Shown: piece after piece, positions 8,735 through 62,828 of the stretch | How the letters are laid out: each line of letters starts with the position of its first letter | Numbering within the stretch: position 1 is the stretch's first letter | DNA from: a virus | Strand: one strand, 5' to 3' | Virus record (IMG/VR): IMGVR_UViG_3300010939_000064 | Location: 1-64,000 of that record | DNA length: 64,000 nt | Translations under genes and position numbers: made by a program | Notes under the pieces: generated by a model | Database searches by the model: none | The model's input: the letters and a program-made list of their open reading frames with translations, nothing else | What the model was told of the DNA's origin: nothing

Positions 8735-8752
8735 AGTCCGTAAGTAACAGTC

Positions 8753-9397: not shown

Positions 9398-9420
9398 GTA
9401 TCATTGGTAGTCGCAACATC

Positions 9421-10100: not shown

Positions 10101-10112
10101 GAGGTTAGTAGT

Positions 10113-10325
10113 ATGGGAAAGTATGAACATATAATGACGAAACAAAGTGATGTCCAATATAAGATTATGATGGCTAATATTGCTGTTGCTAATGAATTGG
10201 ATGAAGCAAATCGGTTAAAAAGAATTGATTTAGCTGTTCAAATAATAAAATTGGATTCTGCTGAAAAGAAAAGAGTTGAAGCTGAAATAGCAGAAGATCT
10301 TGATTTGACAGAACAAACCGGATGA
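10113..10325 (+). CDS. hypothetical protein (helical, acidic C-terminus)
   Basis: 70-aa ORF. AGGAGGT lies 7 nt upstream. Confidence 0.5.
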   Translation: MGKYEHIMTKQSDVQYKIMMANIAVANELDEANRLKRIDLAVQIIKLDSAEKKRVEAEIAEDLDLTEQTG

Positions 10326-11902
10326 ATATTGTTGGATTAAGTGCAATTACGGCTGAGTATATTCAGCATTGTGGATCTGATAATATGGTTGTTAAAGCAG
10401 CTAGAGTTTCTATGAGCAAAGATGAAGTTAATATTAAACCAGATGAGACTCAATTGATTAAGGATTTAGTTGCCAAAAAACATCTTACTCCGTTTGAGAT
10501 GTGTGATATAACGTTTCTTGTTTCATGCCCTATATTTGTTGTTAGGCAATTTCATAGGCATAGGACTTTTTGTGTAAGTGGAGATACTGAAGTATATACA
10601 GATCCACCATCTAGTGTTAGAACTGATAGGCGTAGATTACATAAGATACCAATAGAGAGATTATATTATAGTCTTTTTAATGATATTACAAAGATTCATT
10701 TGAGAACGTATGATGTTAAACGTAATACTTTTGATTGGACACATATAAAGAAGGTATTTCAAAATGGCATGAAACATATGTATAGAATAACTTTGGCTGA
10801 TGGAAAAACTATTACTTGTACTAAAGAACATAGATTTTTAGGTAAAAATGGTTTTGAAACGCTTGAAGATACTATAGGTTTGATACATATAAACAAAAGC
10901 GTTGGTATGACTAAAAGAGGTATTATAAAAGTCAATGGTCAGTATCTTAAAGGTCAGATTCCTTGGAATAAAGGAGTTAAAGGATATAAAATCAATAACA
11001 CAATTTCTGATGAACAAAGAGAGGCTATACGTAACGCAAGATCTGGAAAGAAATCTAATTTCTGGAAAGGTGGAGTATCTTCTGAAAGACAGTTAATTGC
11101 AACATGGACTACAAATCAGACTACAGCAGTTCATAAGAAGTTTAATTATATATGTCAGAAGTGTGGAAAGAAAGGCGGTAAATTACATGCACATCATATA
11201 AAGTCAGTTGTAGAATTTCCTAAACTTGCTAAAGATTTTAATAATTTAGAATCTATATGCGTTTCGTGTCATAAAATAGAACATAAACAAAATGGAGATG
11301 CATTAAAATGGAGAAATTCTCATAATGGGAATCTATTGATTCCGAGAGAGGTTGAAATAATTAAGATAGAATATGTTGGAATAAAAGAATCATATGACTT
11401 AGAAGTTGAACATGAGGATCACAATTATATTGCGAATGGTATAATTGTTCACAATAGTTATAATGAATGGAGCGCGACTTATTCTACTGTTGGGGAAAGT
11501 TTTTATGTACCTAAAGAGATTAGACTTGAAGATAGTAATGTTAAAGCGCAATCAACATTTAGTGATGAAAAAAGTAAAGAACTATTAGGTCTTATTGAAT
11601 ATGAATGTTACAAATCTACTGAAGGTTATTGTAAATTAATTTCTAATGGAGTTTCTTTAGAAATGGCGAGGATGATTTTACCTCAGAATATGATGACTAA
11701 GTTTTATGCTAAAGGTAATATTAGAAATTGGGTTCAATATTGCGCAATAAGATGTAATAAGCGCGTATTGTATGAACATCAGGTACTAGCTAAACAGATA
11801 TTTAAAGAAATACTTAAGATGTTTCCTATTTCTGTTTGGGCGCTTGCTAAAGATATGTTTGATGAAGAGACTTTTAAGTCTTTAAATTTAAAACGAAAAT
11901 GA
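10322..11902 (+). CDS. thyX: FAD-dependent thymidylate synthase ThyX, interrupted by an intein
   Basis: N-extein ends ..VVRQFHRHRTF and C-extein starts SYNEWSATYS... Joined they give the ThyX signature RHRxxSxNxxSxxY. The extein total of 231 aa is typical for ThyX. Confidence 0.85.
   Translation: MNIVGLSAITAEYIQHCGSDNMVVKAARVSMSKDEVNIKPDETQLIKDLVAKKHLTPFEMCDITFLVSCPIFVVRQFHRHRTFCVSGDTEVYTDPPSSVRTDRRRLHKIPIERLYYSLFNDITKIHLRTYDVKRNTFDWTHIKKVFQNGMKHMYRITLADGKTITCTKEHRFLGKNGFETLEDTIGLIHINKSVGMTKRGIIKVNGQYLKGQIPWNKGVKGYKINNTISDEQREAIRNARSGKKSNFWKGGVSSERQLIATWTTNQTTAVHKKFNYICQKCGKKGGKLHAHHIKSVVEFPKLAKDFNNLESICVSCHKIEHKQNGDALKWRNSHNGNLLIPREVEIIKIEYVGIKESYDLEVEHEDHNYIANGIIVHNSYNEWSATYSTVGESFYVPKEIRLEDSNVKAQSTFSDEKSKELLGLIEYECYKSTEGYCKLISNGVSLEMARMILPQNMMTKFYAKGNIRNWVQYCAIRCNKRVLYEHQVLAKQIFKEILKMFPISVWALAKDMFDEETFKSLNLKRK
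10571..11455 (+). mobile_element. intein (295 aa) with HNH-type endonuclease domain
   Basis: It starts at Cys84 (CVSGDTEVYT, block A), contains TCTKEHRFL (block B) and ends GIIVHN followed by Ser (+1). The internal HNH motif is HAHHIKSV..NNLESICVSCHKIEH. Coordinates were checked codon by codon (TGT 10571-10573, AAT 11453-11455). Confidence 0.8.
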
Positions 11903-12848: not shown

Positions 12849-12983
12849 GTAAGAAAAGGGAACGCTGTGGACGTTTAGGAGAAATAGGTTTAATTACTAT
12901 ATGTGGGTTAGATGCAGCATGGATGTTACATGCATATTATGAAGAAAATGAATTATAGCTATGAATATACTGTTAAGTAACTT

Positions 12984-13268: not shown

Positions 13269-13393
13269 GTTATGGACGCAACGTTTCATATACACAGCAA
13301 ACAAGATTGCGACTACGCGCTAGACGTAATCAACCATATCAAGGAAGCCTATCCTTCAGATAAAAAAACTGAATGATAGTTTCTTGATCCCCC

Positions 13394-13402
13394 TTTTTTT
13401 TT
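13394..13402 (+). terminator. oligo-T terminator (T9)
   Basis: GATCCCCCTTTTTTTTTG follows a 34-aa ORF, and the next gene starts at 13408. Confidence 0.4.
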
Positions 13403-13407
13403 GAATA

Positions 13408-13845
13408 ATGGTTAAAAAAATTCATCACTCGATTCATAATTATCCACATAAGGATAAATTGATAGCTGATACAATTAAATATTATAGATCACTTAAAGAT
13501 ATTTCTAATAAATATGGACAAATGTATTTTGAAGACTTGGATGATTTCTTTTTGGATATAGTTAAATTTTATAAATTAGGAACTAAAATCATGAATCCAA
13601 GAACTCATTTTTTAGAACCGCATGGGCATCATGAGGGTGGTCATACTCATCAGATTGATACAGGTATTTATTATCTTCAAATACCGAAGAATTCTGGCAA
13701 TTTATTTTTTCATAATTTAGGTATTACTATTGAAGCGCAGGTAGATCATTTTATAGTTGTTCCAAGTAATGAACTTCATGGTATTACTATGAATAAAAGT
13801 AATGAAATAAGAATAGCTTTAGCTTTTGATATTGAACAAATTTGA
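13408..13845 (+). CDS. 2OG-Fe(II) oxygenase-superfamily protein (TIGR02466-like)
   Basis: HGHHEGGHTHQIDTGIYYLQIPKNSGNLFFHN....HFIVVPSNELHGITMNKSNEIRIALAFD resembles H.H....sGvyYl..p..sG.l.f....g.l.lFPS.l.H.V..n.s...RiSisFN. Confidence 0.45.
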   Translation: MVKKIHHSIHNYPHKDKLIADTIKYYRSLKDISNKYGQMYFEDLDDFFLDIVKFYKLGTKIMNPRTHFLEPHGHHEGGHTHQIDTGIYYLQIPKNSGNLFFHNLGITIEAQVDHFIVVPSNELHGITMNKSNEIRIALAFDIEQI

Positions 13846-14267
13846 TTAACGAAGAAAGATTTACACTTATGAAAAATGCTTTTGAACATTGGAGTTTGGA
13901 AGATATTTTTACATTAAGGAAGGCTATTGAGTTGAAGCAAGTGGATACTTATTGGGAGTTAGGATTTCTTCATATTGCGAGACTTAAAATGTTAGCGAAA
14001 GAATTTAGGTATGATGAGATATTACAAACTATTGCTAAGCGTATGTATGAACGTGTTGAGGAATATAAAGATATTAGAATGATGCATGGTAGACCTTTGT
14101 CTATTGAAGATATTGAAACGTTATTTAGACATCAACCAGTTACAGATTCTGCTGATGGTAAGGGAGATGTTATTGTTTATGATGTTATGAATTGTAAATA
14201 TAAAGCGAGATTAATTAAGAAATATCCAAAAGCGAAAGATATTATTGAGGACTTGGTGAATGCATAA
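13842..14267 (+). CDS. hypothetical protein
   Basis: 141-aa ORF with ATGA overlap to the upstream gene. Confidence 0.5.
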   Translation: MINEERFTLMKNAFEHWSLEDIFTLRKAIELKQVDTYWELGFLHIARLKMLAKEFRYDEILQTIAKRMYERVEEYKDIRMMHGRPLSIEDIETLFRHQPVTDSADGKGDVIVYDVMNCKYKARLIKKYPKAKDIIEDLVNA

Positions 14268-14465
14268 ATGGATGGATTAGATAGAATATTATTATTTTGG
14301 ACACAATATGTTACTATACTTGCTATCGCTAAAACACATCTTGCTCTAGCATCAATGTTTAATAATAAAGAAAATTTAGAAGCTGGATATGATTGTATGC
14401 ATATTGCAGCATCGTATATTATTGATTTAGAAATATTAAATAAAGAAAGGAGGAAGATTATATAA
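14268..14465 (+). CDS. hypothetical protein
   Basis: 65-aa ORF that directly abuts its neighbours. Confidence 0.45.
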   Translation: MDGLDRILLFWTQYVTILAIAKTHLALASMFNNKENLEAGYDCMHIAASYIIDLEILNKERRKII

Positions 14466-14623
14466 TGTGGAGAAAGTTATCAACTGATACTGGTGTTACT
14501 GATTTTTGTATTGCTGTAAATGGATGGATATTGTTTTCATTATTACATATAAAAGCTGATAAAGAGAGTGAAACTGTATTGGTTATTTTTAATCATACTG
14601 TATTTGAAAGGTGTAGTTATTAA
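14465..14623 (+). CDS. mini-protein, paralog of ORF 6256..6405
   Basis: See 6256..6405. Shared pattern: MW.K.S.....DFCI...G.I.F.LLH.......V.IFNH. Confidence 0.45.
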   Translation: MWRKLSTDTGVTDFCIAVNGWILFSLLHIKADKESETVLVIFNHTVFERCSY

Positions 14624-14624
14624 A

Positions 14625-14765
14625 ATGGCACAAATTATAATATGTAATAGTTGTGGAGGAAAATCTGTAACTATAACATGTAGTTCAGCTGATTCTAAAG
14701 GACGTTGTACTGCGTGTGGGGGAACATCATTTCATTATGAGGAGGTAAATAAAAATGACGTTTGA
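14625..14765 (+). CDS. Zn-ribbon mini-protein
   Basis: MAQIIICNSCGGKSVTITCSSADSKGRCTACGGTSFHYEE. The ATG at 14625 follows the stop of the previous ORF, so the GTG 14568 start given in the track is unlikely. Confidence 0.45.
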   Translation: MAQIIICNSCGGKSVTITCSSADSKGRCTACGGTSFHYEEVNKNDV

Positions 14766-14910
14766 CTGGAAAACTAAGAAGATAAATATACAGCGCTATT
14801 ATAAAGCTGTACGTAGATGTATTATTTTAAATGGTGATGACGGAACGTCTGGTAGTGGATATAAAGCATGACAAAAATTTAAAGAAACGTGGACCATTAT
14901 TGTAGCACCA

Positions 14911-15312
14911 TTGAGTAAAAGTAATAAGTATAATGGAATGTTTAAGCATTTAAAAATAGAAAAAGCAGGTGGAATGGCATGGGGTATTACAGGTAAAAAT
15001 ACTCTTTGGTGGTTTATAGCTGATAGTAGAGATCCGAGAATTTTTATGCAGAATCTTCTACCGGGATTTCATGAGTTATTGCATGCACTTTACCAGCAGG
15101 AAGTTGGAACTGAACATGTTAAGTATCTTACTTCAGATCCGCCTGAAGTTAGAAGAGTAGGTCAAACTGGACCTATGGCAACAGTTGTGGTTCATGATGA
15201 ATGGTACGGATTTAAAACATGGATTAGAATATGGTTTAAACATGGTGGTTGGCTTCCAATGAGAATGCCTTATATACCAATTAAAGTAGGAAAGAAAAGG
15301 TATAATATATGA
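14911..15312 (+). CDS. hypothetical protein with HExxH motif (possible zincin-like metallopeptidase)
   Basis: Contains PGFHELLHALY. TTG start. The 3' end is duplicated downstream of the following HNH gene. Confidence 0.4.
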   Translation: MSKSNKYNGMFKHLKIEKAGGMAWGITGKNTLWWFIADSRDPRIFMQNLLPGFHELLHALYQQEVGTEHVKYLTSDPPEVRRVGQTGPMATVVVHDEWYGFKTWIRIWFKHGGWLPMRMPYIPIKVGKKRYNI

Positions 15313-15845
15313 AAAACATTTGTATAATAGAAGAATGTAATGATTTTGTGCATGGAAATAGACTTTGTGGAAAACATTATAGAAGAGAATATTTATATGG
15401 AAGTCCACATGATATTATAGTTAAACAACATATTAGAGAAATATGTTCAATGCCTAATTGTGATAAAAAATATGCTGCAAAAGGTTTATGTCTTCAACAT
15501 TACAATGCTTTACCATATCACAAAGAAAGAAGAAGACGTAATGCATTAAAATATATGAAAAATAATAGAGATAAAGCAATTGAAGCAACAAGTAGATATT
15601 TAGAAAAGATGAGTAAATGTTTTAACATAAGTGGAAACATGTATAAGATATTAATAGATTGTTGGTCCAGAATAATTAAATATAGAGATAAGAAATGTGT
15701 TATTTGTGGTTCTGTAAATACATTAAATGCACATCATATATTTTATAAAAAAGATTATCCTATGTTAAGTTTAAATGAAAATAACGGAATAACATTATGT
15801 AGAAAATGTCATAGAGAATTACATGGAGGACATTGGAATGAATAA
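15309..15845 (+). CDS. HNH endonuclease (free-standing, different family from the five HNH_3 paralogs)
   Basis: C-terminal NAHHIFYKKDYPMLSLNENNGITLCRKCHRELH. Two N-terminal C..C......G.C..HY modules. Confidence 0.8.
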   Translation: MKNICIIEECNDFVHGNRLCGKHYRREYLYGSPHDIIVKQHIREICSMPNCDKKYAAKGLCLQHYNALPYHKERRRRNALKYMKNNRDKAIEATSRYLEKMSKCFNISGNMYKILIDCWSRIIKYRDKKCVICGSVNTLNAHHIFYKKDYPMLSLNENNGITLCRKCHRELHGGHWNE

Positions 15846-15912
15846 TATATGGGTTCCTACTAGGATGCCTTATATTCCTGTTAAAATGGCTAAAGTTGCT
15901 TATAACTTATAA
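15838..15912 (+). pseudogene. diverged duplicate of the 3' end of gene 14911..15312
   Basis: MNNIWVPTRMPYIPVKMAKVAYNL* compared with ..GGWLPMRMPYIPIKVGKKRYNI* at the end of 14911..15312. Confidence 0.55.
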
Positions 15913-16172
15913 TGGGAATAGAAATTCAACAGGGAAAAAAGCATCCAGATGATAAAATAATATTGGTTAATGGGTATTTGTTATCGTATGTAGAAGTCCT
16001 GGAAATTATATTACTTCAGATTAGGAATGAAGATGTTATTTATCCAGTGAGTAAGGGATTTAAAGGAGGCGCGAAATTGCAAGAATTTTATATTAAGTTT
16101 GTTGGAGAAAGGCGAATGCCTAATGATGTTGAAATGAAAGAACTTAAATTAGGAATGTATAAACCGGAATGA
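15912..16172 (+). CDS. hypothetical protein
   Basis: 86-aa ORF with TAATG coupling. Confidence 0.45.
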   Translation: MGIEIQQGKKHPDDKIILVNGYLLSYVEVLEIILLQIRNEDVIYPVSKGFKGGAKLQEFYIKFVGERRMPNDVEMKELKLGMYKPE

Positions 16173-16697
16173 ATGTGTTGGAGTTAGAATGATGCCTAAT
16201 TCAAAATGTATTTTATGTGGACTGGAGCTAATTAATCCACCTTATCCTCGTAAGACATTCCATGAAAAGTCAATATGTCATAATTGTTTAACGTCAATTA
16301 ATGGCTCGGAGTTGATTAGTGATTGACATCTATAAAGGAATGTAGCATAGCCTGTTCAGAAGCCCGACATTCTGACTGTTTTTACAAACCTTGTGAATGT
16401 AGGTGTCATCGTTAATGGCTTGTTGTCCTCAATGTGGTAAGCATACCTTAAATGGGCAAGGAAATTTTAATATATTTTGTAGTAAAGAATGTAGAGAAAA
16501 GTTTGGAGAAGAGGTGTTTTGAATGAATTGTTATGATAATATTGTTGATGATGAAGTTATACCGATGTGTTGTGATAAACCTACAATTGAGTTAGTTTTG
16601 GTACATGAAGAATATATGCATATTTGTACCAATTGTGACAGTCGTAGACCAGAGCTAGATTGAAATTGTTCTATACCTATGTTTCAGATATTCAATA

Positions 16698-16871
16698 ATG
16701 TACAAGTGTTCATTTTGCCCACGTACAGGTAGTCTTATTGAAATAAAAGATCATATAAGAAAGGAACATAAGAGAGAGCTTGAAAAATGTTTAGATGTTG
16801 ATAAGTGGAATAAAGGCCAAAAGATAAGTTATACATTTAAGGATAACGCTGTATCTAAAGATAAGGTTTGA
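16698..16871 (+). CDS. C2H2 zinc-finger mini-protein (57 aa)
   Basis: MYKCSFCPRTGSLIEIKDHIRKEHKRELEK.. gives C-x2-C-x12-H-x4-H. It is one of about seven ORFs under 60 aa packed between 16189 and 17000. Confidence 0.45.
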   Translation: MYKCSFCPRTGSLIEIKDHIRKEHKRELEKCLDVDKWNKGQKISYTFKDNAVSKDKV

Positions 16872-16982
16872 CTAAAACTGAAGTTATAACTTGGGTATGT
16901 ACGATATGTAGGTATAAAGTTACTCAAAGAATTAAGCCACGTAATTGTAGCAAATGTAAGAGGTTTGGAAGTATGACATTTT

Positions 16983-17306
16983 ATGGATCGAAAGTTGTCT
17001 GAAGATAAGTGTGCTGTTTGTGAAGGTTCTTGTAAATTTATAGGAGCACTATGTTTATATTGTAATGGAACTGGAGAGAAGAATAATGCTGCTACAGCTT
17101 ATATTAAGAATCATATTTGTCAATGTATTACATTGGATAGAAAATGGTGTCCTGTATGTAAGAAGAAATGTCATCATGATTCTAGTTCAAGACCTAAACA
17201 AACGATTGAACCTGGACCGGGAGGAATTTCGTATATAGATTATAGAATTACTGGTGATAAAACTACTGGTGAAGAAGAAACTAAAGTAGAGGAAGTTACA
17301 GCATGA
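16983..17306 (+). CDS. Cys-rich protein with DnaJ-type CxxCxGxG element
   Basis: CAVCEGSCKFIGALCLYCNGTGEK, then CPVCKKKCHH, with an acidic tail. Confidence 0.45.
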   Translation: MDRKLSEDKCAVCEGSCKFIGALCLYCNGTGEKNNAATAYIKNHICQCITLDRKWCPVCKKKCHHDSSSRPKQTIEPGPGGISYIDYRITGDKTTGEEETKVEEVTA

Positions 17307-17460
17307 AGAATTTAGAGACACATATTAAAATTGTTTGTATGTTCTGTGGATTTCATAATCATTTTATAATGCCTGTTTTAGGAGAAGATGCAATTGCACA
17401 TCATAGATGTGAACATTGTGATAAATATATAATTGAAATGCATACAGCAGATGTAGAAGA

Positions 17461-17820
17461 ATGAAGGGTATAGTTACTCTTTGTGGATCGACAAGATTTA
17501 AACGAGAGTTTGAGGAAATGAACGCGCTTTTAACTTTTGAAGGATGGATTGTTTTGAGTGTAGGTATTTTTGTGCATGATGAAAATAATAAAACTATAAA
17601 GGCTGAGATAAAGAAAAAGAAAAATATGTTAGATACTCTGCATAAAGAAAAAATAGAGATGTCTCAGTTTATTATTATTATTAATAAAGATGGATATATT
17701 GGTAAATCTACTGGAGAGGAAATTAAATACGCAGAAGAAATAGGTAAATCTGTTTATTATTGGAATAATAGATATTCATGGTTTAATGAAAAATTAATAA
17801 AAGCTTATGAAAAAGTTTAA
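17461..17820 (+). CDS. nucleoside 2-deoxyribosyltransferase-like / DUF4406-like protein
   Basis: N-terminus IVTLCGSTRFKREFEEMNALLTFEGWIVLS resembles the CGS.RF...f......L...G..V signature of this Rossmann-like family. Confidence 0.35.
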   Translation: MKGIVTLCGSTRFKREFEEMNALLTFEGWIVLSVGIFVHDENNKTIKAEIKKKKNMLDTLHKEKIEMSQFIIIINKDGYIGKSTGEEIKYAEEIGKSVYYWNNRYSWFNEKLIKAYEKV

Positions 17821-17865
17821 GCGCGGAGAACGTAAAGCAGATAATTCTTTATATAGGAGATAAAA

Positions 17866-18364: not shown

Positions 18365-18366
18365 TT

Positions 18367-48994: not shown

Positions 48995-49378
48995 ATGACA
49001 ACTGAAAATCATAAAGAAAGTATTAGAAAATGGCAAAAAACAGCAAGAGGTATAGCATCAAGGAAGAGAGCATATAATGTATATAGAATTCAACAAAGAG
49101 GAAGATTATTTAGTATATTAGGTGGTCATAAATGTGTAAAGTGTAATTTTGACGATTTTAGAGTTCTTCAATTTGATCACATCAATGGAGGTGGTAGAAT
49201 AGATATGAAAAGATTTGGTAATACACATGTGATGGTGTGTTATTATTTAAAACATCAAAAAGAAGCCAAAGAAAAATTACAAGTATTGTGTGCGAATTGT
49301 AATTGGATAAAAAGATGTGATAATAATGAACACAAACAAAATTATGCTAAGAAAGTACAAGGTGACATTTTTGCCTAG
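48995..49378 (+). CDS. HNH-like nuclease (single DH..GG / CxxCN domain)
   Basis: HKCVKCNFDDFRVLQFDHINGGG.....LQVLCANCNWIKR. Confidence 0.6.
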   Translation: MTTENHKESIRKWQKTARGIASRKRAYNVYRIQQRGRLFSILGGHKCVKCNFDDFRVLQFDHINGGGRIDMKRFGNTHVMVCYYLKHQKEAKEKLQVLCANCNWIKRCDNNEHKQNYAKKVQGDIFA

Positions 49379-49693: not shown

Positions 49694-49704
49694 TTTTTTT
49701 TTTT
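49694..49704. terminator. T11 tract in convergent gap
   Basis: T11 lies between the stop at 49678 (+) and the stop of the minus-strand gene at 49703. Confidence 0.45.
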
Positions 49705-50278
49705 AAGATTTAAAAGAATTATTTGTAAGTTCATTGTTTGTTGATCTTTTGATCCAGTTGCAATTTGCACATAATACTTGTAAATCACGAATAGCTATTT
49801 CTGGATTAGCAAAGTAAAAAGTTAACATTTTATCATAATCACCAAATTCTCTTACATCTTCTTTACAACTTCCATATATATGATCTAACTGAAGAGTGTA
49901 ATAATTGGTAATTCCACAATGTTTACAACTAGATCCACCGAGTAAATTGTACATTCTTATATTTCTATCCATATGTTGTTTAGATTTATTCTTACGCATT
50001 TTAATTTGTTTTTCAGTAAGGTCTTTAATCTTATTTCTTAAACATTCACCATTGATAGTACGTTTAATCCAGTTACAGTTAACACATAATACTTGCAATA
50101 TCTGTTTAGCTTCCTTAGGATGCTTAGTATAATATTTGTGCATATAAAAGCTAGTGCGTTGGAATTTATCAATAACTTCTTTAGTACCACCACTATCTAT
50201 ATGATCAAATTGTAATGCTCTAACATCAGTAAAATTACAATTGATACATTGTTTACCTCCAAGAATATTAAATAACAT
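49703..50278 (-). CDS. tandem double HNH-like nuclease (two DH / CxxCN domains); the 5' end probably extends upstream
   Basis: Domain 1: KQCINCNF..LQFDHIDSGG...LQVLCVNCNWIKR. Domain 2: SSCKHCGI..LQLDHIYG....LQVLCANCNWIKR. Homologous coding sequence continues upstream of ATG 50278. Confidence 0.6.
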   Translation of the reverse strand: MLFNILGGKQCINCNFTDVRALQFDHIDSGGTKEVIDKFQRTSFYMHKYYTKHPKEAKQILQVLCVNCNWIKRTINGECLRNKIKDLTEKQIKMRKNKSKQHMDRNIRMYNLLGGSSCKHCGITNYYTLQLDHIYGSCKEDVREFGDYDKMLTFYFANPEIAIRDLQVLCANCNWIKRSTNNELTNNSFKS

Positions 50279-54149: not shown

Positions 54150-54977
54150 ATGTCAGCTAATATTGAGACGACGCAAAGTACATCAGAAAAGTATGATATA
54201 GATACTTTATTTGAAAATGCGCACGCACAACAAGAAAAGAATCCATATATAAGTTGTATATTTTGGGGACCGCCAGAATCTGGTAAAACGTATACTGCGT
54301 TATCGTTTCCTGGACCGATCCATTATGTTGATTTAGATGGTGGATTAGATTTAAATCTAAAATACTATAAAGATAAAGATATTCAACGCATTAGGTGCAT
54401 TAGTTTGGATGACGATAAAGAGAATCTTGCAGATCCAAAAGATTATGATGGATTCAAGGTTGATCCAATTAATACATTAAGGAATTTTGATGTTGCGTGT
54501 ACAGTACTTCAACAGAAAAAAGGTGGTACAGTTGTTGTCGATACAATGACAGCGTATAATGAGTGGCTTAAAGCATTGATGACTGCCAGAATTCCTAAAC
54601 ATATAAACAAAGAAGGACAAGAATATGTGGACCAATTCGATTGGAAATATGTCAATCAAAAATGGTTATGGTCTTGGGAGAAACTAAAGAATATATCGGC
54701 AAATTTAGTAGTTACCGCAAAATCTAAACCTGTATATCAAGGTAGAGACATTACTGAAAATATTGAAGCAGATTTACGGCCTAATACAGGATTTCAGACT
54801 GCGATTAATGTTGAGTTTACTAAAGATGTTTCACAGGCACAAGATGGGAAAGTAACCACTGTACGAAAAGCTAAATTTAATAAATTTAGAGGTAATAAAC
54901 TTGGATCTACATATAGTATTGAAAATCTTACATATGATAAGATAATGGATATTCTTAAGGCAGAAAAACAAGTATGA
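54150..54977 (+). CDS. RecA-like ATPase (AAA_24 / Sak4-like)
   Basis: Walker A is CIFWGPPESGKTYTAL and Walker B is TVVVDTMTAY. Confidence 0.55.
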   Translation: MSANIETTQSTSEKYDIDTLFENAHAQQEKNPYISCIFWGPPESGKTYTALSFPGPIHYVDLDGGLDLNLKYYKDKDIQRIRCISLDDDKENLADPKDYDGFKVDPINTLRNFDVACTVLQQKKGGTVVVDTMTAYNEWLKALMTARIPKHINKEGQEYVDQFDWKYVNQKWLWSWEKLKNISANLVVTAKSKPVYQGRDITENIEADLRPNTGFQTAINVEFTKDVSQAQDGKVTTVRKAKFNKFRGNKLGSTYSIENLTYDKIMDILKAEKQV

Positions 54978-55558
54978 GTAATATTTTAGATAATTATAAT
55001 AAAGATAATAAATTACTTTTACCTAAGGGTATGTTAAATAATTTTATGGCAAAAATTAACATACCTAAAGATAAAAGTAAATGTTGGATATGGATGGCGT
55101 CGTTAAACAATGGATATGGTACTTTTAGTACATATGGACTTACTGGTAAATTTGTTCATAGAATTATGTATGAACTAATTAAAGGAAGGATTAAAGAATC
55201 TTACACAATAGATCATTTATGTAGTAATAAATTATGTGTAAATCCAGAGCATTTAGAACAAGTAACTCGTGATGAGAATTTATTGAGGGGCAACGGCGAT
55301 TTAACTCACGCTGGATTTTGTTCCAAAGGTCATAAAAGAACATTAGATAATATTTATATTACACCAAGTACTGGTGCAACTAGGTGTCGTAAATGTAAAG
55401 GAATTTATCATCCGGAAAGAAAAGATTTTGTTAATAATAAAGATAAAACTTATTGTAAAAGAGGACATGAGTTTACTAAAGAAAATACTTATTTAAGATC
55501 AAATGGTGGACGACAGTGTAGAACATGTATGAGTTTAAGAAATAAAGGATTAATATGA
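54974..55558 (+). CDS. HNH homing endonuclease, paralog 2 of 5
   Basis: YTIDHLCSNKLCVNPEHLEQVTRDENLLRG plus two C..GH...C..C modules. Confidence 0.8.
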   Translation: MSNILDNYNKDNKLLLPKGMLNNFMAKINIPKDKSKCWIWMASLNNGYGTFSTYGLTGKFVHRIMYELIKGRIKESYTIDHLCSNKLCVNPEHLEQVTRDENLLRGNGDLTHAGFCSKGHKRTLDNIYITPSTGATRCRKCKGIYHPERKDFVNNKDKTYCKRGHEFTKENTYLRSNGGRQCRTCMSLRNKGLI

Positions 55559-58116
55559 TAGATATATATAGAAAAGTACACACAGGAATTAGTTTCTCTA
55601 CTAAAGGAAGACCTATTTTAGATATTTTCTCTAGAGATAAAGATAATAATAGGGGTACTATTAAAATATTAGATTTACCAATATATTTCTACTTAAAAGA
55701 AGATGAGTATATTGAAGAAATAGATAGAAAATCAAGTATTATTGGTGAATATTATGGATATATGAGTTTATATGGAGAAAAACTTAAGAAAGTTAAAGTT
55801 AAAAAAATATCAGATATGCGTAGATTAGGTAAAATATATCATGGTTATGAGTCAGATATTAATTGGAGTAAAAAATGTATGTTAGATTTACAAATTACTG
55901 ATAAGTTTCTTTATCATGAAGGAAAAGCTTATACTCTTGATCCTAGATTTAATGCATTAAAAGATAAACAGATGGAGGTATTGACAGATGATGGATTATC
56001 AATATCTACTACTGTCGAGAGTAATGTGGATAAATTACTTATATCAAAAGCGTTAGAAGAAGAAGGTGATTTACATAATTATAAACCAAAGATTGGAACT
56101 GAACCATTTGAGGTTAGATACGGAATTTTTGATATCGAAGTTGTTGTTAATAAAAGAGAGGATCTTAAAACTTATAATGGTAAAATAGTTTGTGTTGTTA
56201 TTTATGATTCTTATACTAAATTGTATCATAAATTAAAATTAGATCTTAGTGAAAAAGATTTTATTAAGACAGTTTTAAGTAAATTCCGTGAATTAGATTT
56301 TGATATTATAAGTGGATGGAATGTTAAATTTGATATGGGGTGGCTTATAAATAAAGCTGAAGATTATAATTTAGATTTAAGTATTTATTTTCCTGGAGGT
56401 AAAACTTTTATTAGTAAGTATACTGACCATGAAGGTAAATTTAAAGAAAGTTTTTATATTGGTGGACGGGTTCTTCTTGATGGAATGGATTTATATATTA
56501 AGAAAACCGCTACAACTGAAAAGCTTAATTCTTATAATTTAAAGTCTGTTGCTGCTGCTGAAAAGTTACCTGAATGGACAGATTTAGGTGGTCAAGTTAA
56601 AGAAATATGGGAAAATAATCCTAATCTAATTTTAGACTACTGTAAAATAGATGTTGAAAGAACTATGCAAATTATTGAAAAGAAGGATTTACTTGGTGGT
56701 GCCCTTACTATTTGTAAATTTTATGGCTGTGGATTTGAAGATGTTACTGTTAATTCTAAAATTATTGATTGTCTTAGTTTTTTGCTTAAAAAGAATCGTA
56801 TTCTTCCTAATATTATTAGAGGTCGAGAAAAAGCTAAAATTACAGGAGCAAAAGTTCTTGGTACAAAAGCCGGTGTACATAAGAATGTAGGTGTACTTGA
56901 TGCTGCTAGTTTGTATCCAAGTATTATTCAAGGTTTGAATATTTCTCCTGAATGTTTAGTTTATGAAAAGGATTTATCTGAAGATAGGCGTATACATTGT
57001 ATTACTGTGGATTCTTATACTGCTAAACATTATTTGTACAAAAAAGAATATAAAGTAGGATTAATGACTGAAGTTATTCAAGAGATGAGAAAATTAAGGG
57101 AAGAAATTAGATCCAATAGAGCGCAAGCAACTAAAGATAATGATACAGAAAAATTTACTCTTCACAATAATGAAGAAAAAGTAGCTAAAGGAGTTCTTGC
57201 TTCTGTTTATGGTGTTATGGGATTTAATGGATTTAGATTATTTAATGAAGATTGTGCTAATATTATCACTAAAGTTGCACGTGATACTGTTTTAATGACT
57301 GCTGAAAAGTTAGAATCAGATCGTTTTCATGTTATTGCAGGTGATACAGATTCATTATTTGTTCAAATGAATAATGTTAACGATGGATTTATTGCTGCTG
57401 ATATAATAGATAAAATGGCTGTAGACTATATGAAAAAATTAGGTATAAATGAATCTATAATTAAAGTTAATTATGAGAAGTTCTTTAAATGGATTATGTT
57501 TAGTAAAAAAGTTTCTAAAAAAAGAAAAACAAAATTATATAAAGTAGATGAAGGTTCAGCTAAAAAGAGATATATTGGATTTATTAGTCATGTTGAAAGT
57601 GGTCCACGAGAAATGAAGGAAGTTAATGAGTTATATTATAAAGGATTTGAATTACGTAGAAGTGATAGCGCAAAAGTTTTGAAAGATGTTATGCGCAAAT
57701 TTTTTAATCTTATGGAAGACGGTAATTATAAGTTAGCTGTTAAATATTTAAGAGATGTTAAAGATGCATTTCATGGTTATACAATGGATTATGTTTCTAT
57801 GCCTAGATCAGTTAATGTTGAAGACGCTAAGGGTCCATGGGCTGACGGATATAGATACGCGAAGACAGAACTTAAATTTGAATTTGAACCTGAAACTATG
57901 CCTAAACTTATTTATGTTAAAAATCAATTTAAATATCCTAAGACTAAAGTTATCTGTTATCAAGATGGACATGCTATACCACCAGAGTTTAAGATTGATT
58001 ATGATACTATGTTTGATAAGATTATTAAAGCTAAGTTTGAACCTATTCTCGAATCATTAGGAACCTATTGGGATGTATCTATCAATAACCAAGTTGCGTT
58101 AGATCAGTGGTGTTAA
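55555..58116 (+). CDS. polB: family B DNA polymerase
   Basis: Exo I YGIFDIEVV, Exo II ISGWNVKFDMGWL, Exo III YCKIDVERT, motif A VLDAASLYPSII, motif B KGVLASVYGVMG and motif C VIAGDTDSLFV. Confidence 0.9.
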   Translation: MIDIYRKVHTGISFSTKGRPILDIFSRDKDNNRGTIKILDLPIYFYLKEDEYIEEIDRKSSIIGEYYGYMSLYGEKLKKVKVKKISDMRRLGKIYHGYESDINWSKKCMLDLQITDKFLYHEGKAYTLDPRFNALKDKQMEVLTDDGLSISTTVESNVDKLLISKALEEEGDLHNYKPKIGTEPFEVRYGIFDIEVVVNKREDLKTYNGKIVCVVIYDSYTKLYHKLKLDLSEKDFIKTVLSKFRELDFDIISGWNVKFDMGWLINKAEDYNLDLSIYFPGGKTFISKYTDHEGKFKESFYIGGRVLLDGMDLYIKKTATTEKLNSYNLKSVAAAEKLPEWTDLGGQVKEIWENNPNLILDYCKIDVERTMQIIEKKDLLGGALTICKFYGCGFEDVTVNSKIIDCLSFLLKKNRILPNIIRGREKAKITGAKVLGTKAGVHKNVGVLDAASLYPSIIQGLNISPECLVYEKDLSEDRRIHCITVDSYTAKHYLYKKEYKVGLMTEVIQEMRKLREEIRSNRAQATKDNDTEKFTLHNNEEKVAKGVLASVYGVMGFNGFRLFNEDCANIITKVARDTVLMTAEKLESDRFHVIAGDTDSLFVQMNNVNDGFIAADIIDKMAVDYMKKLGINESIIKVNYEKFFKWIMFSKKVSKKRKTKLYKVDEGSAKKRYIGFISHVESGPREMKEVNELYYKGFELRRSDSAKVLKDVMRKFFNLMEDGNYKLAVKYLRDVKDAFHGYTMDYVSMPRSVNVEDAKGPWADGYRYAKTELKFEFEPETMPKLIYVKNQFKYPKTKVICYQDGHAIPPEFKIDYDTMFDKIIKAKFEPILESLGTYWDVSINNQVALDQWC

Positions 58117-58118
58117 TA

Positions 58119-58712
58119 ATGACTAAATATGATAATGTAAATAAATTAGTTTTACCATGTGATGTATTAGATAAATTTATTAAAAAATTAATAATTCCTA
58201 AAGATATAACACAATGTTGGTTGTGGAAAGGAATACATTCGCCAAAAGGATATGCAAGATGGAGTACTTGTTATTCTAAAAGCGCACATGTAAGTAGGAT
58301 AATTTATGAATTAATATTTGAAAGAATAGAAGAAAAATTAGTTATAGATCATTTATGTTGTAATAAAAGTTGTGTAAATCCTAATCATTTAGAAATTGTA
58401 ACAATGGGAGAAAATACAAAAAGAGGTAATACTAAATTGAGACATAATGATTATTGTAAAAATGGGCATAAAAGAACTTTAGATAATATTTATATACGTA
58501 AAAATGGATTTGTGCAATGTCGTAAGTGTTTAGGAATCTATCATCCTGATAGATTAGATAGAAAACCAGGTATTAATCATAATACTTTTAAAACTATATG
58601 TATAAGAGGACATAAATTTGATGAACAAAATACAGGATTTAATAAAGATGGAAGTAGGTACTGTAAATCGTGTAAATCGTTAAGTAATAAAGGAATGTTA
58701 ACAACATTATGA
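58119..58712 (+). CDS. HNH homing endonuclease, paralog 3 of 5
   Basis: LVIDHLCCNKSCVNPNHLEIVTMGENTKRG. The likely start is ATG 58119 (MTKYDNVNKLVLP), as in the paralogs. The track start GTG 58107 lies inside polB. Confidence 0.8.
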   Translation: MTKYDNVNKLVLPCDVLDKFIKKLIIPKDITQCWLWKGIHSPKGYARWSTCYSKSAHVSRIIYELIFERIEEKLVIDHLCCNKSCVNPNHLEIVTMGENTKRGNTKLRHNDYCKNGHKRTLDNIYIRKNGFVQCRKCLGIYHPDRLDRKPGINHNTFKTICIRGHKFDEQNTGFNKDGSRYCKSCKSLSNKGMLTTL

Positions 58713-58750
58713 TGATTAATAACCAAGTGACACTGGATGTATGGGCGTAA
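58712..58750 (+). pseudogene. diverged duplicate of the polB 3' end
   Basis: ATG ATT AAT AAC CAA GTG ACA CTG GAT GTA TGG GCG TAA (MINNQVTLDVWA*) compared with the polB end ..INNQVALDQWC*. Confidence 0.55.
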
Positions 58751-60761: not shown

Positions 60762-61370
60762 ATGACACGTATTATTACTTTTACAGGTGCTCAAGGCACA
60801 GGTAAAACTGCTACTAGAGGAGAACTTGTTAGATGGTTACAGAAACATAAATATTCTGTTATCGATAGATATTCAGGTGTAAAACAAAGTATTGCAAGAG
60901 ATGCTAAACAGTTTGGATTTATTATAAATGAAAAAACTAATTTTGAATCACAGTATTACATTGCTAGTAGATATATTGTTGCAGATATTGAAACGCGAAA
61001 AAATGCTGAACGAAGAAGTGTTGATTTTATAGTTCTAGATAGATCTGTGCTTGATAGTATTCCTTATATTATGGTGGCTACCGCTATTACAATAAGTCAG
61101 AAAGAGGTACTTAAAAACATGTTAATTGATCATTTTGCTTTATTTCCTAGTAGATTACTTTATTGTGAACCGTTAGATTTTGTTACTTGGGATAAAGATA
61201 GATCTACTAATACGAAATTTCAGGATAGTGTTGATGCTGAATTTAGGAATATTCTTATAAAAGCTTCACAATATTCAAATACGTTTATTTTAAAAAGAGG
61301 ATCTATTGAACAACGGTTAAGAGATGTTATTAAGGAACTAGGTATCGAATGTGGAACTATTAGAATTTAA
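60762..61370 (+). CDS. P-loop NTPase, nucleotide/deoxynucleotide kinase-like
   Basis: Walker A is ITFTGAQGTGKTAT. FIVLDRSVLDSIPY resembles the D-R lid region of dNK/AAA_28 kinases. Confidence 0.45.
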   Translation: MTRIITFTGAQGTGKTATRGELVRWLQKHKYSVIDRYSGVKQSIARDAKQFGFIINEKTNFESQYYIASRYIVADIETRKNAERRSVDFIVLDRSVLDSIPYIMVATAITISQKEVLKNMLIDHFALFPSRLLYCEPLDFVTWDKDRSTNTKFQDSVDAEFRNILIKASQYSNTFILKRGSIEQRLRDVIKELGIECGTIRI

Positions 61371-61410
61371 CAAAATTCGTAAGTCATTATTAATGTCATG
61401 GAAAGTGTAA
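61351..61410 (+). pseudogene. diverged duplicate of the 5' end of the Cas4-like nuclease gene
   Basis: VELLEFNKIRKSLLMSWKV* compared with MKELEFNKVRKSLLMSWKVC.. at 61989. The differences are mostly synonymous. Confidence 0.6.
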
Positions 61411-61988
61411 TGCAAAGTTTAAATTATGATAATGAGAATAAATTAATTCTACCTAAATCTACAGTTAAGAGAATTATCAAGAAAATTATAATACCAGAAG
61501 ATATATCGAAATGTTGGGAATGGATCGGCGGTCGCGCACATGAGTATCCGTATATTAGAATAAATAATATAATGAATAAGCCTGTACATAGGATAATGTA
61601 TGAATTAGTGAATGGTAAAATAGAACAGGGATTAGTTATTGATCATGTTTGTAGTAATAAAAATTGTGTAAATCCACAACATTTAGAAGAAGTAACTAAT
61701 CATGAAAATAATCTTAGAGGTAATACTGATTTACAACATGCTGGATATTGTAAAAATGGACATAAGAGAACTCCTGAAAATACGTACATTAGACCAGATG
61801 GACGTGGTACGTATTGTCGTAAATGTGCAGATATATATCATCCAAAAAGGGAAGATTATATTGTAAATAAAGATAAAACACATTGCATTAGAGGACATGA
61901 ATTTACACTAGAAAATACACGTATAAGAAAATATGGTGGAAGACAATGTAAAACGTGTGATATATTACACGCTAAAGGATTAATTTAA
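61410..61988 (+). CDS. HNH homing endonuclease, paralog 5 of 5
   Basis: LVIDHVCSNKNCVNPQHLEEVTNHENNLRG. The likely start is ATG 61410 (MQSLNYDNENKLILP), with TAATG overlap to the fragment stop. The track start is 61398. Confidence 0.8.
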   Translation: MQSLNYDNENKLILPKSTVKRIIKKIIIPEDISKCWEWIGGRAHEYPYIRINNIMNKPVHRIMYELVNGKIEQGLVIDHVCSNKNCVNPQHLEEVTNHENNLRGNTDLQHAGYCKNGHKRTPENTYIRPDGRGTYCRKCADIYHPKREDYIVNKDKTHCIRGHEFTLENTRIRKYGGRQCKTCDILHAKGLI

Positions 61989-62828
61989 ATGAAAGAATTA
62001 GAATTTAATAAAGTAAGAAAGTCGTTGTTGATGAGTTGGAAGGTATGTCCAAGGCAAAGTTGGTATAGTGTTAGAGATCCAGAATATGGGGAATATAATA
62101 AATTTAATTTTAAAGATCCTGCTTTATTATTAGGACAAATTTTTCATAAAGAAATGGATAAGTTTTATTCTGAAATTGATATTAATGATATGGTAAAAAT
62201 GATGAATAATAATGAAGATTCATGGAAAGTATTAGAAGAGTATTTGTTTAGTCAATTTAGTCAAACAACTCATGAAAAATGTCTTAAATATTTTCATTGG
62301 TATGCTGGTATTGAAGCGCAGAGATTTATTGAGTTATATAGTGAATCTAATACTGGTATTGTTCAAAGATTTATTCCATTATATATAGAGAAATTTGTTG
62401 AAATGATAGATGAAAAAAATAATATATATAGGAATGGACATTTTGATAGAATTGATTATATTTCACCAGGGAAACTTAGACTTGCTGAATATAAAACAGG
62501 ACATAGTTATGATGTAGCAAAGTCTTATAAATTAACTAAATTAAGATTGGAATTATATTATTATAAACGTATTATTGAACAACTTCCTGAATTTAAGGAT
62601 TATGAAGTCTATGAATGGATGCTAATTAATCCTACGACTGAAGCAGTATTTACTTCTAAGTTTTCAGTGTTAACTGAACGTGTGTTAGAAGAGTCAATTC
62701 CAAGGTTAGCTGCGGATATAAATAAGAAAGAACCACCTCGTAGAAATTTAAATTTTTATTGTTTTAGATGTAAGTATAAACGTGGATGTTTAATAGATAT
62801 TGCAGAAAATATATTTGATATAATGTAG
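61989..62828 (+). CDS. Cas4/RecB-like PD-(D/E)XK exonuclease with Cys cluster
   Basis: N-terminal CPRQSWY, core GHFDRIDYISPGKLRLAEYKTG (D...E.K) and C-terminal CFRCKYKRGC. Confidence 0.65.
   Translation: MKELEFNKVRKSLLMSWKVCPRQSWYSVRDPEYGEYNKFNFKDPALLLGQIFHKEMDKFYSEIDINDMVKMMNNNEDSWKVLEEYLFSQFSQTTHEKCLKYFHWYAGIEAQRFIELYSESNTGIVQRFIPLYIEKFVEMIDEKNNIYRNGHFDRIDYISPGKLRLAEYKTGHSYDVAKSYKLTKLRLELYYYKRIIEQLPEFKDYEVYEWMLINPTTEAVFTSKFSVLTERVLEESIPRLAADINKKEPPRRNLNFYCFRCKYKRGCLIDIAENIFDIM

What the first reader, a model, noticed from the sequence alone, without database searches (positions are those of the whole stretch)
15241..15912. HNH gene bracketed by two diverged copies of the 3' end of the HExxH-motif gene
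Gene 14911..15312 ends ..GGWLPMRMPYIPIKVGKKRYNI*. Overlapping the end of the HNH gene (15309..15845) is a mini-ORF at 15838..15912 that reads MNNIWVPTRMPYIPVKMAKVAYNL*.

The core RMPYIP is identical. The nucleotide strings GGCTTCCAATGAGAATGCCTTATATACCAATTAAAGTAGG and GGGTTCCTACTAGGATGCCTTATATTCCTGTTAAAATGGC align without gaps. The downstream copy is in the same reading frame (position mod 3) as the upstream gene.

This HNH belongs to a different family from the five HNH_3 paralogs, so the terminal-duplication architecture is not tied to a single endonuclease lineage.
Basis: seen in the sequence. Interest (0 to 1): 0.65.

Follow-up and report, generated by a model that had tools for sequence, protein, structure and literature searches.

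The report
Phage endonuclease cassette replacing a gene's end
A selfish HNH endonuclease gene entered this phage genome together with a foreign copy of the last 24 codons of the neighbouring gene, pushing the original gene end downstream as a leftover, which is a splice-free way of settling in a gene known from fungal mitochondria and yeast but which I did not find described for phages.

Summary
Window 15241-15312 and 15841-15912 lie exactly 600 nt apart, share 44/72 nt, and their peptide alignment scores 79 against 27±4 for shuffles.

The closest relative found (L001) has an empty site. There the HExxH gene (X) directly overlaps the downstream 86-87 aa gene (D). Eight close relatives all lack the HNH.

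X is a mosaic. Its body is L001-like at informative sites (82:32). From 15228-15231 onward the tail in use is L049-like (2:14; 0 of 2000 permutations reach this). The downstream copy is L001/L053-like and is contiguous with D. Each copy is closer to a tail in another genome (79% and 76%) than to its partner (61%).

The ~600-bp insert (~15239-15838) is therefore a foreign X tail plus the HNH gene, and 15839-15912 is the displaced native tail. There is no intron (Rfam negative, only 63 nt outside the ORF) and no intein (different frame).

The same architecture recurs at the DNA polymerase tail (HNH_3 at 58107), where an empty site was also found in a relative. A mirror image occurs at HNH_3 61398.

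This matches fungal mitochondrial mORF gene hybrids and yeast WHO elements. Seven literature searches found no phage description.

Cleavage specificity and resistance of the new tail are inferred, not shown.

The parts
14755..15312 (+). Gene X, an HExxH-motif protein of unknown function. It is 185 codons long, as in all homologues. It is chimeric: an L001-like body and a foreign tail.
   Evidence: Alignment with 16 homologues of 175-201 aa. tblastn of L001 X covers 14755-15309 at 73% identity. Strong SD GAGGAGG before 14755. The AF2 model of the family has pLDDT 87 but no significant PDB match.
14869..14871 (+). In-frame TGA at a Trp that is invariant in 15/15 homologues. It splits X into a 38-aa and a 124-133-aa ORF.
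   Evidence: It is the only real gene with an in-frame stop in the comparison with L001. TGA is an ordinary stop in 31/80 ORFs. The same TGA is in three other contigs. No tRNA gene in the window.
15229..15312 (+). The 3' tail of X that is in use (..KHGGWLPMRMPYIPIKVGKKRYNI*), of foreign L049/P0010-like ancestry. It is the upstream copy of the duplication (15241-15312).
   Evidence: Max-chi2 breakpoint between 15228 and 15231: left 82:32, right 2:14, L001-type versus L049-type informative sites, 0/2000 permutations. 80% nt identity to L049 in the tail against 67% in the body; for L001, 65% against 77%. Fisher p=1e-4.
15309..15845 (+). Free-standing HNH endonuclease gene (178 aa). It has two N-terminal Cys-rich, GLCxxHY-type repeats that look like zinc fingers, plus a C-terminal HNH domain. 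Its start overlaps the X stop (ATATGA). It is in a different frame from X.
   Evidence: Pfam PF01844 E=1.1e-6; PHROG HNH families. Invariant C130, C133, H142, H143, N159, C164, H168, H172. Absent after X in 8 close relatives. GC 26% against 35% in the X body.
15239..15838 (+). Inferred inserted cassette of 600 bp: foreign X tail plus the HNH gene, except the last two sense codons and stop of the HNH.
   Evidence: Window 14619-15284 aligns to L001 9865-10530, and 15839-16174 aligns to L001 10485-10820. So 600 bp are extra and 46 nt of L001 are matched twice. Register alignment.
15839..15912 (+). Displaced native tail of X (NNIWVPTRMPYIPVKMAKVAYNL*). It is readable as a mini-ORF from ATG 15838, with the SD GGAGGA at 15825-15830. 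Its stop overlaps the start of D (TAATG).
   Evidence: It is contiguous with D as in L001. It is closer to L053 (55/72) and L001 (52/72) than to the upstream copy (44/72). All 5 family-invariant tail residues are kept. SD duplex energy is -9.3 kcal/mol for the mini-ORF and -0.4 for D.
15912..16172 (+). Gene D (86 aa, unknown function). In relatives it is the immediate, overlapping downstream neighbour of X.
   Evidence: 75% aa identity to L001 10555-10818, which overlaps the L001 X stop.
58066..58750 (+). Second cassette of the same architecture. It comprises the DNA polymerase tail in use (..INNQVALDQWC*, ends 58116), HNH_3 gene 58107..58712, and the displaced tail remnant MMINNQVTLDVWA* (58709-58750), which overlaps the start of gene 58741.
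   Evidence: Relative L072 (90% nt identity in pol) has the empty site: its pol tail ..INSQLTLDAWA* directly overlaps MGLTKED. The remnant matches L072 at 27/36 nt and the in-use tail at 24/36.
61351..62828 (+). Mirror-image case. It comprises a remnant copy of the 5' head of the PD-(D/E)XK exonuclease gene (61351-61410, VELLEFNKIRKSLLMSWKV*), HNH_3 gene 61398..61988, and the intact exonuclease gene 61989..62828 (MKELEFNKVRKSLLMSWKV..).
   Evidence: SW score 80 against a null of 30±4. 17/19 aa identical but only 41/60 nt, so the differences are mostly synonymous. Pfam HNH_3 and PDDEXK_1.

Best explanation
This is a free-standing HNH homing-endonuclease cassette that settled in the 3' end of gene X by replacing the gene's end rather than by splicing.

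Shown:
- Relative to its nearest known relative, the genome carries 600 extra bp.
- The extra DNA is a foreign, diverged version of the last ~24 codons of X (with stop) followed by the HNH gene.
- The native last 24 codons were pushed downstream. They remain attached to gene D, whose start they overlap.

Inferred, by analogy with intronless homing in T-even phages, fungal mitochondrial mORFs and yeast WHO elements:
- In a mixed infection the HNH cuts HNH-less alleles of X near the junction, around X codon 160.
- The break is repaired from the HNH-carrying genome. The X body serves as the left homology arm, and the displaced tail plus D serves as the right arm.
- Repair copies in the new tail and the HNH.
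- The new tail keeps X full-length. Because its nucleotide sequence differs most from the native tail right at the junction, it would make the invaded allele uncuttable.

More speculative: the remnant stays open because a strong SD inside the HNH 3' end drives a mini-ORF, and termination of that mini-ORF at TAATG re-creates the translational coupling that D (which has no SD) had with X.
For: - Duplication significant.
- Empty site in L001, with X overlapping D; exactly 600 bp extra in the window.
- HNH absent after X in all 8 close relatives.
- The mosaic breakpoint at 15228-15231 coincides within ~10 nt with the start of the duplicated segment. Informative sites are 82:32 to the left and 2:14 to the right, 0/2000 permutations.
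- The upstream and downstream copies are 61% identical. That is less than upstream versus L049 (79%) and downstream versus L053 (76%) or L001 (72%).
- The closest body relatives (P0002, P0003, P0005) have tails nearer the downstream copy. The upstream copy is nearest P0010, a more distant lineage.
- The HNH has intact catalytic residues, and GC is lower in the cassette.
- No ribozyme.
- The same architecture, with an empty site in a relative, occurs at the DNA polymerase with an unrelated HNH_3. The mirror case at 61398 differs mostly by synonymous changes.
- Precedents with the same anatomy and the same discordant 5'/3' phylogeny: WHO elements (PMC7282813; bioRxiv 10.64898/2026.08.13.744650) and mORF gene hybrids (PMC3630166).
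- SD energies for the mini-ORF and D.
Against: - No donor genome with this HNH next to an X gene was found. L049, the tail's nearest relative, has an oxygenase gene after X.
- The ancestry signal in the tail rests on 16 informative sites in ~80 nt.
- Endonuclease activity, target site and resistance of the new tail are untested. The conserved MPYIP core (ATGCCTTATAT) is present in both copies, so if it were the target the genome would be self-sensitive.
- X carries a premature TGA at an invariant Trp in every contig that holds the cassette. So 'the new tail keeps X functional' may no longer apply in this strain.
- All four contigs holding the cassette are identical, so there is no population evidence of ongoing homing.
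- The mini-ORF's SD could simply be the Gly-Gly codons GGAGGA of the HNH.
Confidence: 0.75

Rival explanations
1. The tail of X was duplicated in place when the HNH inserted (a long target-site duplication or slippage), and the two copies have since diverged. Nothing foreign came in except the HNH.
For: Both copies are collinear with L001, and the offset is a clean 600 nt. An untranslated copy could diverge fast.
Against: Copies made in place after the split from L001 should be each other's closest relatives. Instead the upstream and downstream copies are 61% identical, below upstream versus L049 (79%) and downstream versus L053/L001 (76% and 72%). The copy that departs from the L001 lineage is the one in use, not the unused one, and it departs towards a specific other lineage (2:14). 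The downstream copy is no more diverged from L001 (72%) than the X body is (77%).
Confidence: 0.1
2. The HNH sits in a self-splicing intron, an intein or a translational bypass, and the downstream copy is the real last exon of X.
For: The downstream copy is in the frame of X and is open. All five invariant tail residues are intact. The same genome has an HNH-containing intein in thyX.
Against: Rfam finds no intron or other RNA family in 14500-16500, even at E<=10. Only 63 of the 600 nt lie outside the HNH ORF. The upstream copy already completes X at the position where all homologues end. The HNH is in another frame and has no intein domain. The analogous polymerase remnant is offset by 634 nt, so it is out of frame.
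Confidence: 0.03
3. The tail exchange and the HNH insertion were two unrelated events, or the HNH is a domesticated or inactive nuclease that no longer homes. The remnant is then just a decaying scar with no role.
For: No donor was found, and all cassette-bearing contigs are identical. X has a nonsense codon. 0 of 118 other HNH/HNH_3 loci surveyed show such duplications.
Against: The breakpoint and the duplication boundary coincide within ~10 nt. The pattern occurs three times in one genome. The HNH catalytic residues are intact.
Confidence: 0.12

Closest known systems
WHO elements at FBA1 in Torulaspora/Lachancea yeasts (Coughlan et al. 2020, PMC7282813; Osborne et al. 2026 preprint 10.64898/2026.08.13.744650)
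   Same: The endonuclease gene lies between a full-length host gene, whose 3' end has been replaced by another allele's, and a downstream fragment that is the host's previous 3' end. The 5' and 3' parts of the host gene have discordant ancestry. No splicing is involved. In the published model, resistance comes from allelic sequence differences and the fragment serves as the second homology arm.
   Different: WHO proteins are intein-derived LAGLIDADG plus zinc-finger enzymes, whereas this one is an HNH. WHO elements are nuclear and act in meiosis, whereas this is a phage and would act in co-infection. The fragment is ~400 bp there and 72 bp here. WHO elements form clusters of up to 9 genes, whereas here there is a single cassette per site. 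Cleavage and resistance are shown for WHO and not here.
Mobile endonuclease ORFs (mORFs) making gene hybrids in fungal mitochondria: Allomyces macrogynus atp6; Glomus atp6, atp9, cox2, nad3 (Beaudet et al. 2013, PMC3630166, which cites Paquin et al. 1994)
   Same: An inserted foreign C-terminus, then the endonuclease ORF, then the native C-terminus downstream. The native copy is closest to the sister species and the inserted copy clusters elsewhere. That is the pattern seen here.
   Different: Those enzymes are LAGLIDADG or GIY-YIG. The mORF is often fused in phase with the host gene. They occur in organelle genomes, and the duplicated parts are longer (51-279 nt and more).
Free-standing homing endonucleases of T-even phages (Seg and Mob proteins; 'intronless homing') and the HEGs near essential genes surveyed by Barth et al. 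2023 (PMC10448857)
   Same: A free-standing phage HEG lies between genes and shows presence/absence polymorphism between relatives. Flanking sequence is co-converted, producing a mosaic neighbouring gene. The HEG is modular, with a Zn-finger-type DNA-binding part and a nuclease domain. The T4 details are from my own knowledge.
   Different: Those cases are described as insertions between genes with co-conversion. I found no report of a duplicated, displaced gene end flanking the HEG.
Intein- and intron-borne HNH endonucleases (for example the thyX intein in this same window, 10322..11902)
   Same: An HNH homing nuclease living inside a conserved gene without destroying it.
   Different: Those rely on protein or RNA splicing. 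Here there is no splicing domain or ribozyme, and integrity of the host gene is restored at the DNA level by a spare gene end.

Membership tests
Free-standing HNH homing endonuclease gene | HNH (beta-beta-alpha-metal) nuclease domain with catalytic His/Asn and zinc-binding Cys pairs | tested here: met
   PF01844 at 29.1 bits (cut-off 21.4). C130, C133, H142, H143, N159, C164, H168 and H172 are invariant in the alignment. Matches PHROG HNH families.
Free-standing HNH homing endonuclease gene | Presence/absence polymorphism at one site between related genomes | tested here: met
   Empty site in L001. The HNH is absent after X in L049-L056.
Free-standing HNH homing endonuclease gene | Not embedded in an intron or intein | tested here: met
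   No Rfam match at E<=10. Own start codon and SD, a frame different from X, and no intein domain.
Free-standing HNH homing endonuclease gene | Site-specific cleavage of the HEG-less allele, and biased inheritance in mixed infection | not testable with these tools
   Needs the protein and a host. The phage is known only from metagenomes.
Gene-end-replacement homing element (WHO-like / mORF-like architecture) | Endonuclease gene lies between the full-length host gene and a downstream duplicate of the host gene's 3' end | tested here: met
Gene-end-replacement homing element (WHO-like / mORF-like architecture) | The 3' end in use has a different ancestry from the 5' part of the host gene | tested here: met
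   Max-chi2 breakpoint at 15228-15231, 82:32 against 2:14, 0/2000 permutations. Tail 80% and body 67% identical to L049; the reverse for L001.
Gene-end-replacement homing element (WHO-like / mORF-like architecture) | The displaced fragment is the native end (matches the nearest relatives and keeps native linkage to the downstream gene) | tested here: met
   The fragment is contiguous with D as in L001. Informative sites are 9:5, 18:10 and 20:4 in favour of the L001/L053 type. The signal is modest because the fragment is only 72 nt.
Gene-end-replacement homing element (WHO-like / mORF-like architecture) | The new end confers resistance, and the native allele is sensitive to the element's endonuclease | not testable with these tools
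   Only indirect evidence: the upstream and downstream copies differ most in the first ~24 nt after the junction.
WHO/HO protein family (homology) | Intein-derived LAGLIDADG domain fused to a zinc-finger domain | tested here: not met
   The enzyme is an HNH. So it works like a WHO element but is not a member of that family.
Group I/II intron or intein with homing endonuclease | Ribozyme core, or an in-frame splicing domain, flanking the endonuclease ORF | tested here: not met
   By contrast, thyX in the same window does match Intein_splicing plus HNH.

The most novel reading that the evidence does not exclude
Phage homing endonucleases of unrelated HNH families may use a third, splice-free way of living inside tightly packed, overlapping genes. 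They would travel as cassettes that carry a cleavage-resistant spare end (3' or 5') of the target gene. The displaced native end would be kept on purpose, as the homology arm for the next homing event and as a translated leader that preserves translational coupling of the next gene. That would make WHO/mORF-type elements a general category spanning phages, organelles and yeast nuclei, and a source of rapid, chimeric evolution of phage gene ends.
Probability: 0.35. Interest if true: 0.65.

Novelty: new variant of a known kind. Interest (0 to 1): 0.5.

Why it matters
Homing endonuclease genes are usually thought to persist in genes through introns or inteins, or to sit harmlessly between genes. 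This window shows, with an empty-site control and an ancestry breakpoint, a phage HNH that instead brought a replacement gene end. The same solution appears three times in one 65-kb genome, with two unrelated HNH families.

If this is general, three things follow:
- It explains some short 'orphan' ORFs and chimeric gene ends in phage genomes.
- It gives annotators a signature to look for: gene tail, then HEG, then a diverged tail.
- It extends the recently named WHO category of homing elements from yeast to viruses of bacteria.

The remnant also marks approximately where the endonuclease cut, which gives a direct hypothesis for the target site.

Tried and rejected
- **Known phages.** blastn and tblastn of the region and of X against 50,697 GenBank phages found no match, so no annotated relative exists there.
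- **Splicing.** An Rfam scan at E<=10 found nothing relevant.
- **Global TGA recoding.** I considered this as an explanation for the in-frame TGA and rejected it. TGA ends 31/80 ORFs, including X itself and X in L001, L053, L054 and L055. No other real gene has an in-frame stop. The window has no suppressor tRNA.
- **Second X-tail motif in L048 (position 5213).** It lies in a region coded on the other strand, so it is chance.
- **Search for a donor.** The closest HNH homologues (P0019, P0020, L079) sit in unrelated contexts without flank duplication. 0 of 76 HNH loci and 0 of 42 HNH_3 loci from IMG/VR show a convincing duplication. The only z>6 hit is low-complexity, out-of-frame sequence.
- **Function of X.** There is no Pfam or PHROG hit. 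The AF2 model is confident, but the best PDB match is E=0.03 (an M61 peptidase). The function stays unknown.
- **IMG/VR relatives of the polymerase tail.** They were too distant (25-28% identity) to be useful.
- **'HGG' in the HNH C-terminus versus 'KHGGW' in X.** The two are out of register by 16-19 nt, so I treated the resemblance as chance.

Full report
**1. The observation**

- ORF 14911..15312 ends ..HGGWLPMRMPYIPIKVGKKRYNI*.
- ORF 15838..15912 reads MNNIWVPTRMPYIPVKMAKVAYNL*.
- The two stretches are offset by exactly 600 nt, so they share a frame, and match at 44/72 nt without gaps.
- The quoted 40-mers lie at 15251-15290 and 15851-15890 and match at 29/40.

I compared the 150 nt before the HNH with the 260 nt after it, in all frame pairs. 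The best local peptide score is 79, against 27.4±4.0 (maximum 38) for shuffled sequence.

The intervening ORF 15309..15845 is a Pfam HNH (PF01844, above its cut-off). The five paralogs at 84, 54974, 58107, 59564 and 61398 are HNH_3 (PF13392).

The whole region is 100% identical in three further contigs from ENA, JGI and Logan samples. It is therefore not an assembly artefact.

**2. The host gene and its relatives**

The window is a ~65-kb, 31% GC phage genome. Structural genes lie on the minus strand and many small early genes on the plus strand. It has no match in GenBank phages.

Gene X has 16 homologues of 175-201 aa in metagenomes. They show that X really starts at 14755, where there is a strong SD. 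In the window an in-frame TGA at 14869-14871 interrupts X at a Trp that is invariant in 15/15 homologues.

X has a conserved HExxH motif. A confident AlphaFold model was obtained (pLDDT 87). It has no Pfam or PHROG family and no significant PDB fold match.

All homologues end at the same place as the upstream copy (..MPYIPxxxAKxxYxI*), so the upstream copy completes the protein.

**3. The empty site**

The closest relative is L001, a 55-kb ENA scaffold whose X is 73% identical over its full length. There X directly overlaps (ATGA) an 87-aa gene that is 75% identical to window gene D (15912..16172).

- Window 14619-15284 aligns to L001 9865-10530.
- Window 15839-16174 aligns to L001 10485-10820.

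So the window has 600 extra bp, and 46 nt of L001 are matched twice.

Homology of the downstream copy to L001 starts at about 15839. That is 7 nt before the HNH stop codon.

None of the eight close relatives whose contigs I fetched has an HNH after X. I scanned the 46 more distant IMG/VR loci with a MPYIP-type tail motif. The motif recognised the X tail in only 9 of them, and none of those shows a real second copy. That part of the survey is therefore weak.

**4. Which copy is native**

At informative sites, where L001 and L049 differ and the window matches one of them:
- The X body is L001-like.
- The tail in use is L049-like.
- A maximum chi-square scan places the switch between 15228 and 15231: 82:32 to the left and 2:14 to the right. 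None of 2000 permutations reaches this value.

This breakpoint is within ~10 nt of the start of the duplicated segment.

The downstream copy is L001/L053-like (9:5, 18:10 and 20:4 in three comparisons).

Nucleotide identities between tails:

| Comparison | Identity |
|---|---|
| upstream vs downstream copy | 61% |
| upstream copy vs L049 | 79% |
| downstream copy vs L053 | 76% |
| downstream copy vs L001 | 72% |

Two copies made in place after the split from L001 could not be more distant from each other than from tails in other genomes.

I conclude that the insert (~15239-15838) is a foreign X tail plus the HNH gene, and that 15839-15912 is the displaced native tail. The cassette also has lower GC (26%, against 35% in the X body).

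**5. Splicing**

Splicing is very unlikely, for four reasons.
- Rfam finds nothing relevant at E<=10.
- Only 63 of the 600 nt lie outside the HNH ORF.
- The HNH is in a different frame from X and has no intein domain.
- The analogous remnant at the polymerase is out of frame (offset 634).

For contrast, thyX in the same window (10322..11902) does carry a true intein with an HNH domain.

**6. Recurrence in the same genome**

*DNA polymerase tail.* The DNA polymerase (55555..58116) ends ..INNQVALDQWC*. HNH_3 58107..58712 follows, then a remnant MMINNQVTLDVWA* (58709-58750) that overlaps the start of gene 58741.

A relative with 90% nt identity in the polymerase (L072) has the empty site. Its polymerase tail ..INSQLTLDAWA* directly overlaps the downstream gene. 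The remnant resembles that close relative (ending WA*). The tail in use resembles a more distant homologue (P0026, ending WC..).

*Mirror image.* At HNH_3 61398..61988 the 5' head of the PD-(D/E)XK exonuclease gene is duplicated upstream of the HNH_3. The two heads match at 17/19 aa but only 41/60 nt. The differences are mostly synonymous, as expected for two alleles rather than a decaying copy.

So 3 of 7 endonuclease genes tested here show the pattern. A quick survey of other IMG/VR loci found 0 convincing cases among 76 HNH and 42 HNH_3 loci. That survey would miss old, decayed remnants.

**7. Mechanism**

Shown:
- insertion polymorphism;
- a chimeric host gene;
- a displaced native end;
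- intact nuclease motifs.

Inferred:
- The HNH cuts HNH-less X alleles near the junction.
- Repair from the HNH-bearing genome uses the X body as the left arm and the remnant plus D as the right arm.
- The imported tail, which differs most from the native tail just after the junction, makes the invaded allele resistant.

This is the model published for yeast WHO elements (PMC7282813; preprint 10.64898/2026.08.13.744650). It is also the anatomy described for fungal mitochondrial mORF gene hybrids (PMC3630166).

A further, weaker inference concerns the remnant.
- D has no SD (-0.4 kcal/mol) and in relatives overlaps the stop of X.
- In the window a strong SD (GGAGGA, -9.3 kcal/mol) lies 8 nt before the mini-ORF's ATG at 15838.
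- The mini-ORF stops at TAATG, on the start of D.
- The remnant may therefore be translated and keep D coupled, which would explain why it is still open with all five invariant residues.
- Recency of the insertion explains the same facts.

**8. Caveats**

- No donor genome was found.
- The ancestry signal of the tail rests on 16 informative sites.
- Activity, target and resistance are untested.
- The conserved MPYIP core is present in both copies.
- X carries a premature TGA in every contig that holds the cassette. In this strain X may be dead or may depend on read-through, and the HNH, whose start overlaps the X stop, may be poorly expressed.

**9. Comparison and novelty**

Functionally this is a WHO-like or mORF-like gene-end-replacement homing element. 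It is not a member of the WHO protein family, because the enzyme is an HNH rather than a LAGLIDADG plus zinc-finger protein.

It also fits the family of free-standing phage HEGs. However, the displaced duplicate end is not part of how those are described in the papers I could search. Seven full-text searches were run. Barth et al. 2023 was read for this point.

I rate it a new variant of a known kind, of moderate interest. What this analysis adds is the different ancestry of the two copies and the controls that establish it.

Noticed in passing
window 14869-14871 (within gene X, 14755..15312): In-frame TGA at a Trp that is invariant in 15/15 homologues. It splits X into 38-aa and 124-133-aa ORFs. 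The same TGA is in three other contigs from different samples. TGA is otherwise a normal stop in this genome, and no suppressor tRNA is encoded. It could be a nonsense mutation, a pseudogene or leaky read-through.
   Followed up: partly
window 10322-11902: thyX is 526 aa here, against 237 aa in relative L001. The extra ~290 aa match Pfam Intein_splicing and HNH, so this is an HNH-containing intein in thymidylate synthase ThyX.
   Followed up: partly
window 58066-58750: Second cassette of the same kind: the DNA polymerase tail in use, HNH_3 58107..58712, and a displaced 12-13-codon polymerase tail that overlaps the start of gene 58741. Relative L072 has the empty site.
   Followed up: yes
window 61351-62050: Mirror-image case. 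A 19-codon copy of the 5' head of the PD-(D/E)XK exonuclease gene lies just upstream of HNH_3 61398..61988. The two heads match at 17/19 aa but only 41/60 nt, so the differences are mostly synonymous. No relative with an empty site was looked for.
   Followed up: partly
window 54974-58712: The DNA polymerase gene (55555..58116) is bracketed on both sides by HNH_3 genes (54974..55558 and 58107..58712), each overlapping a polymerase end. This recalls the 'HEG islands' of Barth et al. 2023. No flank duplication was detected at the upstream HNH_3.
   Followed up: no
window 13408-13845; loci L049 637-1903, L050 1650-3246: The HExxH gene family sits next to 2OG-Fe(II) oxygenase genes in several lineages. 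A non-significant fold hit of X was to the HExxH domain of an alpha-ketoglutarate-dependent oxygenase (PDB 8s5f). This is a possible functional link, not tested.
   Followed up: no
window 48995-50278: Two more HNH-like ORFs lie in divergent orientation: 48995..49378 on the plus strand and 49703..50278 on the minus strand. The second has only a weak PF01844 match. They may be degenerate endonuclease genes.
   Followed up: no
window 3292-18400 (plus strand): There are very many small ORFs rich in CxxC pairs (zinc-ribbon-like), mostly with overlapping stop and start codons. This tight coupling may be why endonuclease insertions here need a duplicated gene end.
   Followed up: no
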